IMG/VR virus record: IMGVR_UViG_2606217102_000012 | Reading direction: 5' to 3' (one strand) | DNA length: 4,083 bases | Source of the DNA: a virus | Taxonomy: Duplodnaviria > Heunggongvirae > Uroviricota > Caudoviricetes | Part shown: positions 1 to 4,083 of the stretch, piece after piece | How positions within the stretch are numbered: position 1 is the first letter of the stretch | How the letters are laid out: each line of letters starts with the position of its first letter | Notes under the pieces: generated by a model | The model's database searches: none | Told to the model about the DNA's origin: nothing | Seen by the model: only the letters and a program-made list of their open reading frames with translations | Position numbers and translations under genes: made by a program

Positions 1-99
1 GGACAATTCCCATCACGGCGTAAACTCGGCGGTCGTTCCGTTGGCTGGTCTTTATCCGAAGTTCTGGCATGGAAGGACAGCCGCGAGGCAGTTCACTAA
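1..99 (+). CDS. alpA: AlpA/Vis-family phage regulatory protein (excisionase-like HTH), C-terminal fragment; 5' end lies outside the window
   Basis: Frame 1 reads GQFPSRRKLGGRSVGWSLSEVLAWKDSREAVH then stop (TAA 97-99). The FPxxRxLGxxSVGWxxxExxxW pattern matches the conserved C-terminus of AlpA-family proteins as recalled from memory (E. coli CP4-57 AlpA ...FPKKRMLGVKSVGWIEAEIDEWL...). Not verified by search. Confidence 0.7.
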   Translation, partial: GQFPSRRKLGGRSVGWSLSEVLAWKDSREAVH

Positions 100-240
100 T
101 CAGGCTGGCGGCGCACCGCCGCCACCCATCCACTAACACAGAGATCTAACCATGAATACTGGATATACGCCCGAACAGGGGCGGGGCTTCGTTCGTCCTG
201 GTGAAACTAAAAAGCCATGTTATCGGGTATTTTCAGGCAT

Positions 241-1063: not shown

Positions 1064-1270
1064 ATGAGAAATTATACCAGACACCCGCAAGGGCGGGACT
1101 CGTACAACCTGAATAAATACATCTGGCGTTTTATCGCCCTGAGCACGGCACAACCGCGCGTGATTACCATTGAGGCCACCAGCGAACAGGAAGCGCGTCA
1201 GCAATCTCCTGATGGCTGCGTGATGGTATTCGCTGCCCGTATTCGCCAGGGGGAAACCTATGCACAATAA
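1064..1270 (+). CDS. small hypothetical protein (68 aa), tentatively Icd-like (host cell division inhibitor family); first gene of the plus-strand operon
   Basis: ATG 1064 preceded by GAGG (1055-1058) with 5-nt spacing; stop TAA 1268-1270. Product MRNYTRHPQGRDSYNLNKYIWRFIALSTAQPRVITIEATSEQEARQQSPDGCVMVFAARIRQGETYAQ. The ...EAxSEQEAR...FAAR... C-terminal pattern resembles what I recall of Icd-like small proteins in P4-like/satellite islands; family assignment is from memory only. These are the last 68 codons of the otherwise spurious 152..1270 ORF. Confidence 0.5.
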   Translation: MRNYTRHPQGRDSYNLNKYIWRFIALSTAQPRVITIEATSEQEARQQSPDGCVMVFAARIRQGETYAQ

Positions 1271-1496
1271 AACCACACCGGACGCAGCCGCCGAAGCCAT
1301 CAAAACGCTGATGCACGCGCTGATTGATATTTCTGTTATCGCAGACAAGGCGCATAAGCACGCCACCAGCGAAACAGAATATGCCGGGGCTTTCGTTCCT
1401 CACTCACTGGCTCTTATGCAATTTAGTGCTGATATGGCGCTGAATGAGGCAGGCAAAATTCTTACCGCAGATATTCAGGGGGTGCACCATGCATGA
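1260..1496 (+). CDS. hypothetical protein (78 aa)
   Basis: ATG 1260 preceded by GGGGG (1250-1254); overlaps the upstream gene by 11 nt, suggesting translational coupling. Stop TGA 1494-1496. Product MHNKTTPDAAAEAIKTLMHALIDISVIADKAHKHATSETEYAGAFVPHSLALMQFSADMALNEAGKILTADIQGVHHA. No family recognised. Confidence 0.5.
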   Translation: MHNKTTPDAAAEAIKTLMHALIDISVIADKAHKHATSETEYAGAFVPHSLALMQFSADMALNEAGKILTADIQGVHHA

Positions 1497-1716
1497 TGAC
1501 CGTTATCTTAAATCAATGAGCCATGCAGAAAACGCACTGACTAACAGTGAATGTTTGAGGCAAATATTTCTTATCTGGCTTGATGGTTTAAGTGATGCGC
1601 CGGAAGATGAGCGTGAGTCTAATCTTGCTGGTGCGTTTATTTCATTACTCGATACGGTAATCGTCGAATTAAATAAAGCGATCGAAATTCACGATAAAAA
1701 AATAAACGCGGAATAA
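1489..1716 (+). CDS. hypothetical acidic protein (75 aa)
   Basis: ATG 1489 preceded by AGGGGG (1477-1482) with 6-nt spacing; overlaps the upstream stop in ATGCATGA (1489-1496). Stop TAA 1714-1716. The track's upstream ATG at 1444 has no SD. Product MHDDRYLKSMSHAENALTNSECLRQIFLIWLDGLSDAPEDERESNLAGAFISLLDTVIVELNKAIEIHDKKINAE. Confidence 0.5.
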   Translation: MHDDRYLKSMSHAENALTNSECLRQIFLIWLDGLSDAPEDERESNLAGAFISLLDTVIVELNKAIEIHDKKINAE

Positions 1717-1721
1717 AAACC

Positions 1722-2009
1722 ATGAAAAATAAAAATTCTGGCTTTACTGCCAGCGGCCCCGCTCGGCCTGAAATCCGCCCCGGCGATATTTTCCGGGATA
1801 ACTATGGCGGCACGGTAACGATAAAAGGCGTGGCAGAACGGCGCATCACTTACCGCCGTGATGGCTACGAATATGACTGCGTGATGCCTGTTTATCAGTT
1901 CCGGCGTGATTTCACGCTGGTGGGCCATCGTAAAGCCGTAAATCAGAAACGTGCAGCAAGTCATATCCGCAAAATTCGTGAAATGCTGGTCGCAGGGGGT
2001 AAAAAATGA
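1722..2009 (+). CDS. hypothetical basic protein (95 aa), translationally coupled to the downstream helicase gene
   Basis: ATG 1722 begins 6 nt after the upstream stop; its stop TGA (2007-2009) overlaps the ATG of the rep gene (2006-2008) in ATGA. Product MKNKNSGFTASGPARPEIRPGDIFRDNYGGTVTIKGVAERRITYRRDGYEYDCVMPVYQFRRDFTLVGHRKAVNQKRAASHIRKIREMLVAGGKK. No family recognised. Confidence 0.55.
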   Translation: MKNKNSGFTASGPARPEIRPGDIFRDNYGGTVTIKGVAERRITYRRDGYEYDCVMPVYQFRRDFTLVGHRKAVNQKRAASHIRKIREMLVAGGKK

Positions 2010-3412
2010 AACTGGCACCGAACGTAAAACTGTTACCGAAAGATAAACACACTGAGGCGGTTATTTTTGCGGGTGATAATGCTCACTCCTTTGCAGAACA
2101 TTACATGATTGCACAGGCCAAAAAAGCAGGCGATCCCATCCCTCCGGTTTACCTGGGCCGTTATCAGTTAAGCGAACTGGACAACCTGCAGATTGTTGAT
2201 GAGGGGCGATACAGGGTAACGGTGATACGCGCCGGAAATATTGACGAAGCGCAGCTGTTAACCATAGCGACAAAACTGGCGATCGCCGGAGTCCAGGAAG
2301 CGCGGCTGCTTTCTGAAAACTTCGAATTACTGGAGAAATGGACCGACCAGCTTCCACGGCTACGGGAGACATGGGAGAGAGGGGAAAGCCTGATCATGAA
2401 CGGAGGAAAACAAAAAATCACGCTACCGATTTCATGGGGTTCTGAGGGATTCGACGCGCAGCAAAGCTACGTAATTAAGGGGCTTATTCCGGCTGAATCA
2501 TTATGCAGCACCTACGGGGCCAGCGGTTCTTATAAATCGTTCCTGGCTATTTCCTGGTCGTGCCATGTTGCCACAGGTATGGCATGGGGAGGCCGCAGGG
2601 TAAGTAAGGGCGCGGTTATCTATATCGCTGGCGAAGGCAGTATGGGCGTAAAACGCCGCGTTAAGGCGTGGGAGATAACCCACGACAAGGTGGTTACGGA
2701 TTTGTGCATCGTTAACGCGCCTGTCTTCCCTGCATCGCCTGACTATGTGGAGCAGGTTATCAGGACCGCCGGATTAGTGCAGGACAGAACGGGCGAAAGG
2801 GTGCGGATGATTGTCATTGACACGCTGGCCCGTTGCTTTGGTGGTCATGATGAAAATGACTCCCGCGACATGGGGGCGTTTATCCAGGGGTGTGACGCGA
2901 TAAAGCAGGCCACGGGGGCCACGGTTCTGGTTGTGCATCATTCCGGCAAGGATGAGACGAAAGGGGCGCGGGGTTCCAGTGCATTCCGTGCGGCGCTTGA
3001 TGCTGAGTTCCGAATCAGTCGGGAACATTCAGAGGCTACGGCGCTGGTTGCAGCATGTACGAAGATGAAGGACGCGGAGGAGCCAAAAGAAAGCGCCTAC
3101 GACCTTAAGAGCGTGGAGGTATTTACGGATCCTGAGGGTGAAGAAATCGTGTCCATGGTGGTGATTGACGTTCCCCGCGCCCCTGCTGAACTGGAGCGCA
3201 TAGAGGAGGCCGGGAACAAGACGGAAAATCACACGGCTTTATGGGGTTGTATCCGGTCACGTATACAGCATGGTGATAAATGCACGATCCCGCTGCTACG
3301 TGATGACATGAAAAAGCTGGGATATGACACAAAACACCTTAAACGATGGTTAGCCAAACTGGAAAAAGACGGCGTGATTTGCGTCGATGGGGATGATGTT
3401 CACCCACTGTAA
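2006..3412 (+). CDS. RepA-like RecA-fold (AAA_25-type) ATPase / replicative helicase-initiator of the element (468 aa)
   Basis: Long ORF with SD AGGGGG (1994-1999) 6 nt before the ATG. P-loop-like motif YGASGSYKSFLAI; Walker B / helicase motif RMIVIDTLARCF followed by HDENDSRDM; motif TVLVVHHSGKDETKGARGSSAFRAALDAEFRI typical of RepA/DnaB-like RecA-fold helicases. N-terminal ~150 aa and C-terminal ~90 aa regions (...DDMKKLGYDTKHLKRWLAKLEKDGVI..., possibly winged-helix) are unassigned. Iteron array begins at its stop codon. Confidence 0.85.
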   Translation: MKLAPNVKLLPKDKHTEAVIFAGDNAHSFAEHYMIAQAKKAGDPIPPVYLGRYQLSELDNLQIVDEGRYRVTVIRAGNIDEAQLLTIATKLAIAGVQEARLLSENFELLEKWTDQLPRLRETWERGESLIMNGGKQKITLPISWGSEGFDAQQSYVIKGLIPAESLCSTYGASGSYKSFLAISWSCHVATGMAWGGRRVSKGAVIYIAGEGSMGVKRRVKAWEITHDKVVTDLCIVNAPVFPASPDYVEQVIRTAGLVQDRTGERVRMIVIDTLARCFGGHDENDSRDMGAFIQGCDAIKQATGATVLVVHHSGKDETKGARGSSAFRAALDAEFRISREHSEATALVAACTKMKDAEEPKESAYDLKSVEVFTDPEGEEIVSMVVIDVPRAPAELERIEEAGNKTENHTALWGCIRSRIQHGDKCTIPLLRDDMKKLGYDTKHLKRWLAKLEKDGVICVDGDDVHPL

Positions 3413-3612
3413 AAAGTGGGCGTTAAAAGTGGGAATAGTGGGTAATTTAACTGGAATTTAACAAAATCGCCCACTTTCCCACGTGTATACATCCCAAAAA
3501 GTGGGCACTAAAAAAATTCTTATGAAACAGTACGATATAAAACCACAAAATCCCAGGTGGGACGAAGTGGGAAACCATGAAAAGTGGGTAGAAAAAGTGG
3601 GCGCAGGTGGGC
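3403..3612. repeat. iteron array, candidate origin of replication (ori) of the element
   Basis: Direct copies of (A)AGTGGG ending at 3420, 3433, 3442, 3505, 3571, 3588 and 3601, plus AGGTGGG variants ending at 3561 and 3611. Inverted copies CCCACT at 3403-3408 and 3470-3475, and CCCAC at 3478-3482. Two clusters (3403-3505 and 3555-3612) flank an AT-rich ~45-bp segment (3506-3550). AATTTAAC occurs twice (3444-3451, 3455-3462). Placement directly 3' of the helicase gene matches the rep-ori layout of SaPI/PICI-type elements. Confidence 0.7.
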
Positions 3613-3614
3613 GC

Positions 3615-3866
3615 ATGACCAGAAAAACCAGAGATAAGACAACACCAAAATATCGCGCATTAGACATGACAGAGCACGCCTTAAAGGTGGCAATCAGAAC
3701 GATAGACCGCCACGCCGGAGAAGGATACGCGAAAGCACATCCCGAACTGATAAGCGCATTCATGATCACGGCGGCGGCAAATTTTGCCACACTGACAGAA
3801 CGGGAGATTGCCGAAGCGGAACAGGTGACAACCATCAACGTTAAAACCGGAGAGCAGACAGCATGA
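3615..3866 (+). CDS. hypothetical protein (83 aa); start uncertain
   Basis: ATG 3615 preceded by AGGTGG (3605-3610, itself an iteron variant) with 4-nt spacing; stop TGA 3864-3866 overlaps the next ATG (3863) in ATGA. Product MTRKTRDKTTPKYRALDMTEHALKVAIRTIDRHAGEGYAKAHPELISAFMITAAANFATLTEREIAEAEQVTTINVKTGEQTA. The track's start at 3483 is a GTG and would make the iterons coding, which is judged unlikely. Confidence 0.45.
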   Translation: MTRKTRDKTTPKYRALDMTEHALKVAIRTIDRHAGEGYAKAHPELISAFMITAAANFATLTEREIAEAEQVTTINVKTGEQTA

Positions 3867-4083
3867 CAGCACAGATAGCGGCTTACGGGCGGCTGGTGGC
3901 TGACCCGCAGCTAAAGACCACCAGCAAAGGGACACAAATGGCGATGGCGAGTATGGCGGTTCCCCTGCCATGCAGCCAGGCAGATGACGGAACGGCGACG
4001 ATGTGGTTATCTGTCCTGGCGTTTGGCAGACAGGCCGACGCACTGGCAAAACACCACAAAGGCGAACTGGTGAGCGTGGCGGG
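3863..4083 (+). CDS. SSB-like OB-fold single-stranded DNA-binding protein, N-terminal part (3' end outside window)
   Basis: ATG 3863 with GGAGAG (3849-3854) upstream; open to the window end. Product MTAQIAAYGRLVADPQLKTTSKGTQMAMASMAVPLPCSQADDGTATMWLSVLAFGRQADALAKHHKGELVSVAG. It aligns by eye with the SSB N-terminus (E. coli SSB [29 protein letters not shown] ... [30 protein letters not shown]): G-x-L-x-x-DP-x-h-x-x-T-x-x-G, a W-containing strand, F-G-x-x-A-x-x-h-x-x-h-x-KG-x-x-V-x-h-x-G. Confidence 0.6.
   Translation, partial: MTAQIAAYGRLVADPQLKTTSKGTQMAMASMAVPLPCSQADDGTATMWLSVLAFGRQADALAKHHKGELVSVA

What the first reader, a model, noticed from the sequence alone, without database searches (positions are those of the whole stretch)
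3403..3612. Dense AAGTGGG iteron array directly 3' of the RepA-like helicase gene: candidate element-specific replication origin
At least 8 direct copies of (A)AGTGGG and AGGTGGG, plus 3 inverted copies, sit within about 210 bp in two clusters flanking an AT-rich ~45-bp segment (3506-3550). A random 6-mer would be expected only once or twice on both strands in 4 kb. The first inverted copy lies in the last codons of the helicase gene. Iteron clusters flanking an AT-rich unwinding region next to the initiator gene is the established ori layout in SaPIs/PICIs and iteron plasmids; the iteron sequence would define this element's replicon specificity.
Basis: partly seen in the sequence, partly recalled or inferred. 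Interest (0 to 1): 0.7.

Follow-up and report, generated by a model that had tools for sequence, protein, structure and literature searches.

The report
Phage-satellite replication origin with matched initiator
The repeat-dense 200 bp after the helicase gene is almost certainly the replication origin of an E. coli phage-satellite island (PICI), a layout already published for this class, and comparison with about 130 relatives indicates that one amino acid of the helicase's DNA-binding tail sets which repeat sequence it recognises.

Summary
Eleven RGTGGG sites lie in 3403-3611, against at most 4 per 210 nt in 5000 shuffles. They fill the 202-bp gap between the RepA-type helicase gene (2006-3412) and the next gene (3615). 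The window belongs to a roughly 10-kb E. coli PICI-type phage satellite at the tRNA-Pro/yejM-narP site, a site already listed for published PICIs.

The interpretation as a Rep-specific origin is strongly supported by computation. The same array layout follows every related rep gene across Enterobacterales. The repeat core also switches in concert with a single residue, H444 in the window, at the start of the third helix (inferred recognition helix) of Rep's predicted C-terminal winged-helix domain. H or K goes with GTGGG, N with GTGAG, and S or G with GTGCG, in 132 unique pairs with none discordant.

Two corrections apply. The "inverted copy" inside the rep coding sequence (3403-3408) does not covary and is probably fortuitous. 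A family-wide TGTATAYA box flanked by opposed iterons (3470-3505) is a second candidate melting site beside the AT-rich stretch.

This origin layout was published for E. coli PICIs in 2018 and for SaPIs, so this is a new member of a known kind. No binding or replication experiment exists for this replicon type.

The parts
2006..3412 (+). The rep gene, 468 aa. It has an N-terminal domain of unknown family (about residues 1-135), a RecA-fold hexameric-helicase core of the RSF1010 RepA type, and a C-terminal winged-helix domain.
   Evidence: Pfam AAA_25 matches residues 146-317 at E 7e-43. The only PDB sequence hit is RSF1010 RepA 1g8y. The AF2 model's best fold hits are 1g8y, T7 gp4, and RAD51/RadA. 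Close relatives are annotated 'helicase RepA family protein'.
3197..3409 (+). Rep C-terminal domain, residues about 398-468. It is a predicted winged helix and the inferred iteron-binding domain.
   Evidence: The AF2 model of residues 392-468 has pLDDT 84.9 and H-H-H-beta-beta topology. Foldseek top hits are DtxR/IdeR, LexA, ArsR/SmtB, the MCM WH domain, DnaD-N and histone H1, with prob 0.9-0.99 and TM about 0.6 but weak E-values of 0.07-0.2.
3335..3337 (+). Codon CAC for His444, at the N-terminal cap of the third helix of the winged-helix domain (inferred recognition helix) (K443-H444-L-K-R447-W448). It is the inferred specificity residue.
   Evidence: Of the last 120 Rep residues it is the only column that predicts iteron type with 100% accuracy (next best 76%, baseline 60%). 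All 132 unique Rep/origin pairs are concordant.
3403..3408 (-). AGTGGG on the minus strand, inside the last rep codons. It is probably not a functional iteron.
   Evidence: It is not conserved in relatives and does not switch with the iteron type. L010 keeps CCCACT although all of its iterons are GTGAG, and L007 keeps it with GTGAG left-half iterons.
3413..3614 (.). The whole inferred replication origin: the intergenic region between rep and the next gene.
   Evidence: The 202-bp gap has the same position and about the same length in relatives. No promoter-like site was found, no Rfam family, and no DnaA, IHF, Fis or GATC consensus.
3413..3442 (+). Left direct iterons D1 (3413-3420, AAAGTGGG), D2 (3426-3433, AAAGTGGG) and D3 (3437-3442, AGTGGG, a weaker copy).
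   Evidence: D1 and D2 are among the best-conserved columns across 42 unique E. coli-type origins and switch G to A together with H444N.
3443..3467 (.). AT-rich spacer (GC 0.16) containing two AATTTAAC repeats.
   Evidence: It is partly conserved as GAATTTAACAAAAT in relatives.
3470..3482 (-). Inverted iterons I1 (3470-3477, CCCACTTT, the complement of AAAGTGGG) and I2 (3478-3482, CCCAC, a weaker copy).
   Evidence: I1 is conserved and switches to CTCACTTT in the N-type islands.
3484..3491 (.). TGTATACA box lying between the inverted and direct iterons. It is a candidate site for helicase assembly or initial melting.
   Evidence: It is conserved as YRTATAYA throughout the family, including Xenorhabdus, Pectobacterium, Serratia, Kosakonia and Pantoea. 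At least 99 of 167 loci match a strict pattern of inverted iterons, the box, then direct iterons.
3498..3505 (+). Direct iteron D4 (AAAGTGGG), the right-hand partner of I1 across the TGTATACA box.
   Evidence: The inverted-repeat pairs I1 and I10 are reported.
3506..3550 (.). AT-rich segment, the candidate DNA-unwinding element.
   Evidence: 3506-3552 has GC 0.26. The second least stable 30-mer of the window starts at 3511.
3551..3562 (.). Palindrome TCCCAGGTGGGA. It consists of a degenerate inverted iteron (CCCAG) abutting direct iteron D5.
   Evidence: Relatives L003, L101 and L004 have a true CCCAC at this position. The terminator scan flagged it as a hairpin.
3556..3611 (+). Right direct iterons D5 (3556-3561, GGTGGG), D6 (3565-3571, AAGTGGG), D7 (3581-3588, AAAGTGGG), D8 (3594-3601, AAAGTGGG) and D9 (3606-3611, GGTGGG).
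   Evidence: D7 and D8 are strongly conserved and switch with H444N, while D5, D6 and D9 are more variable. D9 also lies where a Shine-Dalgarno sequence for the ATG at 3615 would be.
3615..3866 (+). Downstream 83-aa gene of unknown function. Syntenic genes follow the origin in many of the E. coli-type relatives inspected, including EcCICFT073.
   Evidence: Annotation of L001-L011. It has no Pfam or NCBIfam hit.
3863..4083 (+). Island-encoded single-stranded DNA-binding protein. The gene runs off the end of the window.
   Evidence: Pfam SSB at E 3e-8. Annotated as SSB in L001.

Best explanation
Positions 3413-3614 are the vegetative replication origin of a PICI-type phage satellite. The adjacent Rep protein recognises it through its C-terminal winged-helix domain.

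Rep is a self-loading initiator-helicase, built from a RecA-fold RepA/gp4-type motor and a winged-helix tail. The tail reads the AAGTG-GG iterons, and His444 at the start of the third helix (the inferred recognition helix) is inferred to contact the fourth base of GTG(G)G.

Several Rep protomers are inferred to bind the two iteron arms. The opposed iterons flanking TGTATACA (3470-3505) and the AT-rich 3506-3550 stretch provide easily melted DNA on which hexamers can assemble. The island's own SSB, encoded two genes downstream, would coat the unwound strands, and host primase and polymerase would complete replication.

Shown here: the enrichment, the position, conservation of the layout across the family, the winged-helix prediction, and the residue-to-base covariation. 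Inferred: binding, melting, helicase loading, and which of the two low-stability sites opens first.
For: 1. Enrichment is far above chance.

2. The island context and synteny match EcCICFT073, whose rep-proximal intergenic region was shown to act as an origin. Literature: PMC6092414, read. Synteny.

3. Every related rep gene is followed by the same architecture: 2-3 direct iterons, a spacer, an inverted iteron, YRTATAYA, a direct iteron, a spacer, then 3-5 direct iterons. This holds in E. coli and in Xenorhabdus, Pectobacterium, Serratia, Pantoea, Kosakonia and Morganella.

4. There is concerted evolution. All strong iteron copies change together between islands, and the core tracks Rep residue 444. 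The counts are H with GTGGG (45), N with GTGAG (37), K with GTGGG(GGA) (25), S with GTGCG(GCA) (18) and G with GTGCGC (7), with 0 discordant among 132 unique pairs and about 9 H/N switches on a tree. Rep pairs that differ by 0.6% elsewhere differ at residue 444 and in iteron type.

5. The association is not mere physical linkage. Variable residues closer to the origin (456, 459, 466) predict the type at only 74-76%, and the gene on the other flank reaches 92% at best.

6. The C-terminal domain is predicted with confidence as a winged helix, with residue 444 at the cap of the third helix, the inferred recognition helix.

7. The residue-to-base pairings are chemically sensible: Asn with adenine, His or Lys with guanine. 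This point rests on established protein-DNA recognition knowledge, not on a tool result.

8. SaPI Reps are documented self-loading helicases whose C-terminal winged helix binds 6-12 penta- or hexanucleotide iterons placed immediately downstream of rep, with an AT-rich centre (PMC9371898).
Against: - No binding, melting or replication data exist for this replicon type. The only Gram-negative PICI origin tested (EcCICFT073) uses an unrelated initiator (D5_N/SF3) and a different iteron, GGTAGAYA.
- The fold matches for the C-terminal domain have weak E-values of 0.07-0.2.
- The full-length model is mediocre (pLDDT 65), with a disordered 314-396 linker.
- The covariation could partly reflect co-transfer of the rep 3' end together with the origin by recombination.
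- Hybrids exist. L007 and L113 have an N-type Rep with some GTGGG copies in the right arm.
- In several family members the central spacer is not AT-rich, so the unwinding site is uncertain.
Confidence: 0.85

Rival explanations
1. The array is indeed the origin, but initial melting and double-hexamer assembly occur at the TGTATACA box between the opposed iterons (3470-3505), not in the AT-rich 3506-3550 segment that the first reader proposed. The direct-repeat arms and the AT stretch would be auxiliary.
For: The YRTATAYA box flanked by an inverted and a direct iteron is the most widely conserved non-iteron feature of the family (and 70, where at least 99 of 167 loci match). In several relatives (L141, L063, L032, L163) the central spacer is not AT-rich and instead carries a conserved CTGAAA..CC..TACTGG element. 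Opposed initiator sites around a short melt site are the arrangement of SV40 and papillomavirus core origins (established knowledge).
Against: In this window 3506-3552 is much less stable than the 8-bp box. Both published PICI/SaPI descriptions place the melting region in the AT-rich centre. No data distinguish the two sites.
Confidence: 0.35
2. The repeats are operator or regulatory sites rather than an origin. Rep or another island protein would bind them to control expression of the downstream 83-aa, ssb and capsid genes, for example as a roadblock or by occluding the ribosome-binding site.
For: The last iteron (3606-3611) lies where the Shine-Dalgarno sequence of the 3615 gene should be. 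The array lies inside a unidirectional operon with no detectable promoter or forward-strand terminator. Iteron plasmids use initiator sites for autoregulation (established knowledge).
Against: Eleven sites in two arms around easily melted DNA is excessive for an operator. The same position is functionally an origin in the syntenic EcCICFT073. Downstream gene content varies among relatives (ssb, PerC, ProQ, capsid types) while the array stays attached to rep. A regulatory side-effect is compatible with the origin reading rather than an alternative to it.
Confidence: 0.07
3. The array is a packaging signal (pac or cos-like) recognised by the island's small terminase.
For: Terminase small subunits often recognise repeated short motifs (established knowledge), and the island encodes a TerS.
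Against: The repeat core covaries with a Rep residue. The array follows rep in islands with quite different packaging modules: lambda-like capsid plus decoration protein, ClpP-capsid fusions, and other capsid/TerS sets. It is several kb from terS.
Confidence: 0.02
4. The cluster is a chance or low-complexity purine-rich sequence.
For: The region is A/G-rich on the plus strand.
Against: None of 5000 shuffles reached the observed clustering, and a local-composition shuffle gave 0.57 sites against 11 observed. Copies are conserved position for position, and change in concert, across many islands.
Confidence: 0.005

Closest known systems
E. coli PICI origins, prototype EcCICFT073 (Fillol-Salom et al. 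2018, ISME J, PMC6092414)
   Same: The element class and gene order are the same: int, alpA, Icd-like, DUF4222, rep, origin, small ORF, ssb, capsid and decoration genes. The origin occupies the same intergenic slot immediately 3' of rep. It has many short iterons in both orientations around low-stability DNA. The yejM-luxR(narP) insertion site is listed for published PICIs.
   Different: The initiator family is unrelated. EcCICFT073 pri-rep carries D5_N, DUF5906 and Pox_D5 (SF3), whereas this Rep carries AAA_25 (RecA-fold, RSF1010 RepA-like) plus a winged helix. The iteron is GGTAGAYA there and AAGTGGG here. Only the EcCICFT073 origin was tested experimentally.
SaPI Rep-ori modules (Ubeda et al.; Qiao et al. 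2022, PMC9371898)
   Same: Both have a self-loading initiator-helicase with a C-terminal winged-helix domain. Both have 6-12 penta- or hexanucleotide iterons immediately downstream of the rep ORF, an AT-rich centre, iterons in opposite orientations, and iteron sequence defining replicon specificity.
   Different: SaPI Reps have SF3 or MCM-like AAA+ motors, whereas this one has a RecA-fold SF4-type motor. The hosts are Gram-positive. No sequence similarity to a SaPI Rep was detected in PDB searches.
IncQ plasmid RSF1010 replicon (RepA helicase, RepC iteron-binding initiator, RepB' primase)
   Same: The helicase motor is the closest solved relative, 1g8y, by sequence (E 2e-4) and by fold (E 5e-4). 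Both origins combine iterons with an AT-rich region (established knowledge).
   Different: In RSF1010 a separate protein, RepC, binds the iterons, which are 20-bp units. Here the DNA-binding domain is fused to the helicase and the iterons are 6-8 bp. No RepC or RepB' homologue and no ssi hairpins were identified in the window.
T7 gp4-type primase-helicase fusions
   Same: Longer members of the same Rep family (678-730 aa; Serratia, Pectobacterium, Xenorhabdus) carry Zn_Ribbon_Prim and Toprim domains ahead of the AAA_25 motor. They end in the same winged-helix domain and are followed by the same kind of origin.
   Different: The window's Rep lacks the primase domains. It has a 135-aa N-terminal domain with no family match. 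T7 gp4 has no origin-binding winged helix (established knowledge).

Membership tests
PICI/SaPI-type Rep-ori module | The origin lies immediately 3' of the replication initiator gene. | tested here: met
   The first iteron starts 1 nt after the rep stop codon (3410-3412), and the array fills the 202-bp gap to the next gene.
PICI/SaPI-type Rep-ori module | There are multiple (6-12) short penta- to octanucleotide iterons in two sets. | tested here: met
   There are 9 direct and 2 inverted copies, plus 1 degenerate inverted copy. No shuffle among 5000 reached this clustering.
PICI/SaPI-type Rep-ori module | An AT-rich region lies between the iteron sets. | tested here: met
   3506-3552 has GC 0.26 against 0.504 for the window, and contains the second least stable 30-mer of the window.
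PICI/SaPI-type Rep-ori module | [quoted passage not shown] | tested here: inconclusive
   Clear inverted copies (3470-3482) occur only on the left of the AT stretch. On the right there is only a degenerate CCCAG at 3552-3556, which is a true CCCAC in relatives L003, L004 and L101.
PICI/SaPI-type Rep-ori module | The initiator is a helicase with a C-terminal winged-helix DNA-binding domain. | tested here: met
   The AAA_25/RepA-like motor is supported. The C-terminal domain is predicted as a winged helix at pLDDT 85 with winged-helix fold hits. This rests on prediction only.
PICI/SaPI-type Rep-ori module | Rep binds its cognate iterons specifically. | not testable with these tools
   Indirect support only: the covariation between residue 444 and the iteron core is perfect in 132 unique pairs.
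PICI/SaPI-type Rep-ori module | rep plus ori drives autonomous replication. | not testable with these tools
   Shown only for EcCICFT073, which has a different initiator.
PICI (phage-inducible chromosomal island), Gram-negative lineage | An island of about 8-12 kb with int, alpA, a replication module, capsid-morphogenesis and terS genes, unidirectional transcription, and a dedicated att site. | tested here: met
   L001 spans about 9.3 kb from int to the last island gene, next to tRNA-Pro between yejM and narP, with all modules present. The window starts with the AlpA C-terminus. The yejM-luxR site is listed in Table S1 of PMC6092414.
PICI (phage-inducible chromosomal island), Gram-negative lineage | Induction, replication and packaging depend on a helper phage. 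| not testable with these tools
   No experimental data for this island were found.
Classical iteron plasmids (Rep_3/RepA WH1-WH2 initiators, e.g. pSC101, F, RK2) | The initiator belongs to the Rep_3/RepA_N type, and the origin has 17-22-bp iterons plus DnaA boxes. | tested here: not met
   Rep has no Rep_3 or RepA_N match, only AAA_25. The iterons are 6-8 bp. No DnaA-box consensus occurs in 3380-3640.
IncQ (RSF1010) replicon | A three-protein system (RepA helicase, RepC iteron binder, RepB' primase) with ssiA/ssiB sites. | tested here: not met
   Only the RepA-like motor is present. None of the other window ORFs submitted to Pfam or NCBIfam resembles RepC or RepB'.

The most novel reading that the evidence does not exclude
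A simple one-residue recognition code governs replicon specificity across a large family of Enterobacterales phage-satellite replicons. The family combines a RecA-fold helicase with a winged-helix tail.

The residue at the N-cap of the third helix of the winged-helix domain (the inferred recognition helix; H444 in the window) sets the fourth base of the GTGNG iteron core. H or K gives G, N gives A, and S or G gives C. A single H-to-N substitution together with concerted G-to-A changes in the iterons would then create a new, orthogonal origin specificity or incompatibility group.

Natural near-isogenic pairs (L113 and L115 differ by 0.6% elsewhere) and tandem origins of different specificity (L013) suggest that such switching and cross-recognition shape competition among co-resident satellites. 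I found no published description of this in the searched library.
Probability: 0.5. Interest if true: 0.55.

Novelty: new member of a known kind. Interest (0 to 1): 0.35.

Why it matters
For this window the practical result is a confident annotation. Positions 3413-3614 are the satellite's origin and Rep is its cognate initiator-helicase.

In general terms the layout is already textbook for SaPIs and was reported for E. coli PICIs in 2018, so it is not a surprise.

The added value lies in the comparative result. This RepA-type replicon is a different motor family from the only tested Gram-negative PICI origin. It is widespread across Enterobacterales and is shared between the islands with the window's capsid-plus-decoration module and islands with quite different capsid and packaging modules. 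It shows an unusually clean protein-DNA specificity switch that could be tested with one point mutation.

That would allow co-resident satellites to be sorted into replicon specificity groups from sequence alone. It would also offer orthogonal rep/origin pairs for engineering.

Tried and rejected
- A promoter and terminator scan of 3300-3700 found no sigma-70-like promoter. The only terminator-like hit, on the minus strand, is the TCCCAGGTGGGA palindrome. This gives no support to a promoter or operator reading.
- An Rfam scan of the whole window found nothing.
- DnaA-box, IHF, Fis and GATC consensus searches in 3380-3640 found nothing. There is therefore no evidence for host-initiator dependence.
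- NCBIfam and Pfam gave no hits for the Rep N-terminal 140 aa, the C-terminal 80 aa, or the 83-aa downstream protein.
- BLASTP of the Rep N-terminus against the Toprim region of a long relative was not significant, so I dropped the idea that it is a truncated primase.
I repeated it with database homologues.
- The full-length model is only moderate (pLDDT 65), and I did not interpret it beyond domain boundaries.
- A full-text search for AAGTGGG together with 'iteron' returned only irrelevant papers. The iteron sequences in Fig. 2a of the 2018 paper are not held as text, so I could not check whether this exact iteron was drawn there.
- A search for cf-PICI together with iterons found nothing relevant.
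- The phage collection holds homologues of the helicase core only, not of the C-terminal domain.
- I considered and rejected the copy at 3403-3408 as a true iteron.
Full report
**1. What is in the sequence**

The window carries a run of co-oriented genes:
- the C-terminus of an AlpA-family regulator (1-99)
- a minus-strand YlcI/YnfO gene (691-870)
- an Icd-like gene (1064-1270)
- two small ORFs
- a DUF4222 gene (1722-2009)
- a 468-aa AAA_25 'helicase RepA family' gene (2006-3412)
- a 202-bp gap
- an 83-aa ORF (3615-3866)
- the start of an ssb gene (3863 onward)

The finding concerns the gap. RGTGGG occurs 14 times in the window, against 3.9 +/- 1.9 expected. Eleven of these sites fall in 3403-3611.

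In 5000 dinucleotide-preserving shuffles, the densest 210-nt span held 1.5 sites on average and never more than 4. Shuffling only the local region gave 0.57 sites against 11 observed.

Five direct copies and one inverted copy carry the longer form AAAGTGGG. Positions 3506-3552 have GC 0.26, against 0.504 for the window, and contain the second least stable 30-mer of the 4 kb.

**2. What the element is**

The window matches E. coli chromosomes at 94-98% identity. In the best match (L001) it is part of an island of about 9.3 kb inserted beside tRNA-Pro between yejM and narP. That island carries an integrase, an AlpA-like HTH protein, the genes of the window, a major capsid protein, a head decoration protein, a further HTH protein and a small terminase.

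This is the gene order of EcCICFT073, the prototype Gram-negative phage-inducible chromosomal island. The yejM-luxR site appears in that paper's table of E. coli PICIs.

[quoted passage not shown] It shows that the EcCICFT073 rep-ori cassette supports plasmid maintenance.

**3. The window has a different replicon type from the tested one**

EcCICFT073's initiator is a D5_N/DUF5906/Pox_D5 (SF3) primase-helicase, and its origin repeats GGTAGAYA about 11 times.

The window's Rep has only an AAA_25 domain by Pfam. Its sole solved relative by sequence is the RSF1010 RepA hexameric helicase. Its AlphaFold model also matches 1g8y best, followed by T7 gp4, RAD51/RadA and KaiC, so it has a RecA-fold motor.

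Longer family members (about 680-730 aa; Serratia, Pectobacterium, Xenorhabdus) add a primase Zn-ribbon and a Toprim domain in front of the same motor. The window's first 135 residues match no family.

**4. The layout is conserved in relatives**

I fetched 9 related E. coli islands, 80 loci from other Enterobacterales genomes and 80 IMG/VR contigs. In all informative cases the rep stop codon is followed by the same architecture, in this order:
- two or three direct repeats
- an AT-rich spacer
- one or two inverted repeats ending in TTT
- a YRTATAYA box
- one direct repeat
- a spacer of about 45-60 bp
- three to five direct repeats

In an alignment of 42 unique E. coli-type origins, the best-conserved columns are the window's D1, D2, I1, the TGTATACA box, D4, D7 and D8. 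D3, I2, D5, D6 and D9 are weaker copies.

The supposed inverted copy inside rep (3403-3408) is not conserved. It stays CCCACT in L010, all of whose iterons are GTGAG, and in L007, whose left-half iterons are GTGAG. I do not count it as part of the origin.

**5. Concerted change and a matching protein residue**

Between islands the repeat core changes at all strong positions together, from GTGGG in the window's group to GTGAG in another E. coli group. In other genera the core is GTGGGGGA, GTGCGGCA or GTGCGC.

The core is predicted by one Rep residue, three positions before an invariant Arg-Trp (window K443-H444-L-K-R447-W448). Among 132 unique pairs of Rep core and origin the counts are as follows, with none discordant (mean copy numbers):

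| Residue at position 444 | Iteron core | Unique pairs |
|---|---|---|
| H | GTGGG | 45 |
| N | GTGAG | 37 |
| K | GTGGG | 25 |
| S | GTGCG | 18 |
| G | GTGCG | 7 |

A distance tree built with that column masked requires about 9 H/N changes, each matched by an iteron change. Pairs such as L113 (N) and L115 (H) differ at only 0.6% of the other 329 positions.

Codon 444 lies only 75 nt from the origin, so I tested whether linkage alone could explain the association. Among the last 120 residues, only 444 predicts the iteron type perfectly. Variable residues nearer the origin (456, 459, 466) reach 74-76% against a 60% baseline. The best column of the gene on the other flank reaches 92%.

**6. The C-terminal domain**

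Residues about 400-468 are modelled with pLDDT 82-95 as three helices followed by a beta-hairpin. Residue 444 sits at the N-terminal cap of the third helix.

Foldseek places the domain among winged-helix DNA binders: DtxR/IdeR, LexA, ArsR/SmtB, the MCM winged-helix domain, DnaD-N and histone H1. Probabilities are 0.9-0.99 and TM is about 0.6, but E-values are only 0.07-0.2, as is usual for a 70-residue domain.

Asn pairing with adenine and His or Lys pairing with guanine are standard direct-readout contacts (established knowledge). Taken together, the most economical reading is that the Rep winged helix binds the repeats.

**7. Mechanism and what remains inferred**

The closest mechanistic model is the SaPI Rep. 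It is a self-loading helicase whose C-terminal winged helix recognises 6-12 penta- or hexanucleotide iterons placed immediately downstream of rep, around an AT-rich centre (PMC9371898).

I infer the same logic here, with a RecA-fold motor instead of an SF3/MCM one:
- Rep protomers bind both arms.
- DNA opens at a low-stability site.
- Hexamers assemble.
- The island's SSB stabilises the bubble.
- Host enzymes prime and extend.

No DnaA box, IHF, Fis or GATC consensus occurs in the region, which fits host-initiator independence.

Which site opens first is unresolved. In this window the AT-rich 3506-3550 stretch is the least stable. Across the family, however, the invariant feature is the YRTATAYA box between opposed iterons, and some relatives have a central spacer that is not AT-rich.

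**8. Rival explanations**

- Chance is excluded.
- A packaging site is unlikely. The array follows rep whatever packaging module the island carries, and it tracks a Rep residue.
- A purely regulatory operator array is unlikely, though a side effect is possible. D9 lies where the Shine-Dalgarno sequence of the 3615 gene should be, and no promoter or forward terminator separates rep from the downstream genes.

**9. Novelty**

The kind is known for E. coli PICIs (2018) and for SaPIs. I could not check whether this exact iteron is drawn in Fig. 2a of the 2018 paper, because figures are not held. Full-text searches for the motif found nothing relevant.

The finding itself is therefore a new member of a known kind.

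The one-residue specificity pattern is, as far as I could search, not described, and it is directly testable.

Noticed in passing
L013:about 3990-4420 (first 430 nt after the rep stop; Xenorhabdus beddingii): There are two complete origin-like arrays in tandem. The first has GTGAGG iterons, matching the locus's N-type Rep. It is followed at once by a second full array (direct iterons, inverted iteron, TGTATATA, direct iteron) with GTGGGG iterons of the H-type specificity. This could be an orphan origin usable by another satellite's Rep.
   Followed up: partly
L010:2022-2499 (E. coli UMNF18): The gap after rep is 478 bp instead of about 200 bp. It holds a second core (inverted iteron, GCGTATATATA, direct iteron) of the same GTGAG type. 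The downstream gene is ProQ/FinO-like instead of the usual 83-aa ORF and ssb.
   Followed up: partly
L114 and L103 (IMG/VR contigs), region after the rep stop: L114 has lost the whole centre of the origin: iteron 2 is joined directly to the last iterons, as expected from recombination between direct repeats. L103 has a smaller internal deletion. These are natural origin-deletion variants.
   Followed up: no
L007 and L113, origin region: These are hybrid origins. The Rep is N-type and the left arm, the inverted copy and D4 are GTGAG, but two or three copies in the right arm are GTGGG. The left-half spacers also differ from close H-type relatives. This suggests a recombination breakpoint inside the origin and tolerance of mismatched right-arm copies.
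   Followed up: partly
L002:7180-7205 (EcCICFT073 origin), and the central spacers of L141, L138, L163, L063 and L032: A shared element of the form CTGAAA(N)CC(N)C..CA(N)TACTGG lies in the central spacer of several RepA-type origins. It is also present in the origin of EcCICFT073, whose initiator is unrelated. It is absent from the window, which has TTATGAAACAG... there. It may be a host-factor or priming site.
   Followed up: no
window 3606-3617: The last iteron, GGTGGG, sits 3 nt upstream of the ATG at 3615, where a Shine-Dalgarno sequence would be. GAG-type relatives have GAGTGAGGAG at the same place. Rep occupancy could therefore affect translation of the downstream gene.
   Followed up: no
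window 2006-2410 (Rep residues 1-135): The Rep N-terminal domain exists in two allelic forms in E. coli, about 45% identical, which assort independently of the helicase core and of the iteron type. It matches no Pfam family, is modelled confidently (pLDDT about 80-90) as a small alpha/beta domain, and replaces the Zn-ribbon and Toprim primase of longer relatives.
   Followed up: partly
L003, L009, L006 and L004 compared with L001, L005 and L007: The same RepA-type rep-ori module is attached to different capsid and packaging modules. Some islands have lambda-like major capsid plus decoration proteins. Others have ClpP-protease/capsid fusions or another 'phage major capsid protein' with terS, which resemble capsid-forming PICIs. 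This indicates modular exchange of the replication block.
   Followed up: no
window 1-237: The closest relatives (97.6% identity) align only from position 238 onward. The AlpA 3' end and the following ~140 nt (window 1-237) align only to more distant islands. The island is therefore mosaic at this junction.
   Followed up: no
window 1260-3412: Three of the four junctions between the five consecutive genes from 1064 to 3412 overlap the next start codon (1260/1270, 1489/1496, 2006/2009); 1716/1722 is a 5-nt gap. This suggests translational coupling of the small ORFs, DUF4222 and rep.
   Followed up: no
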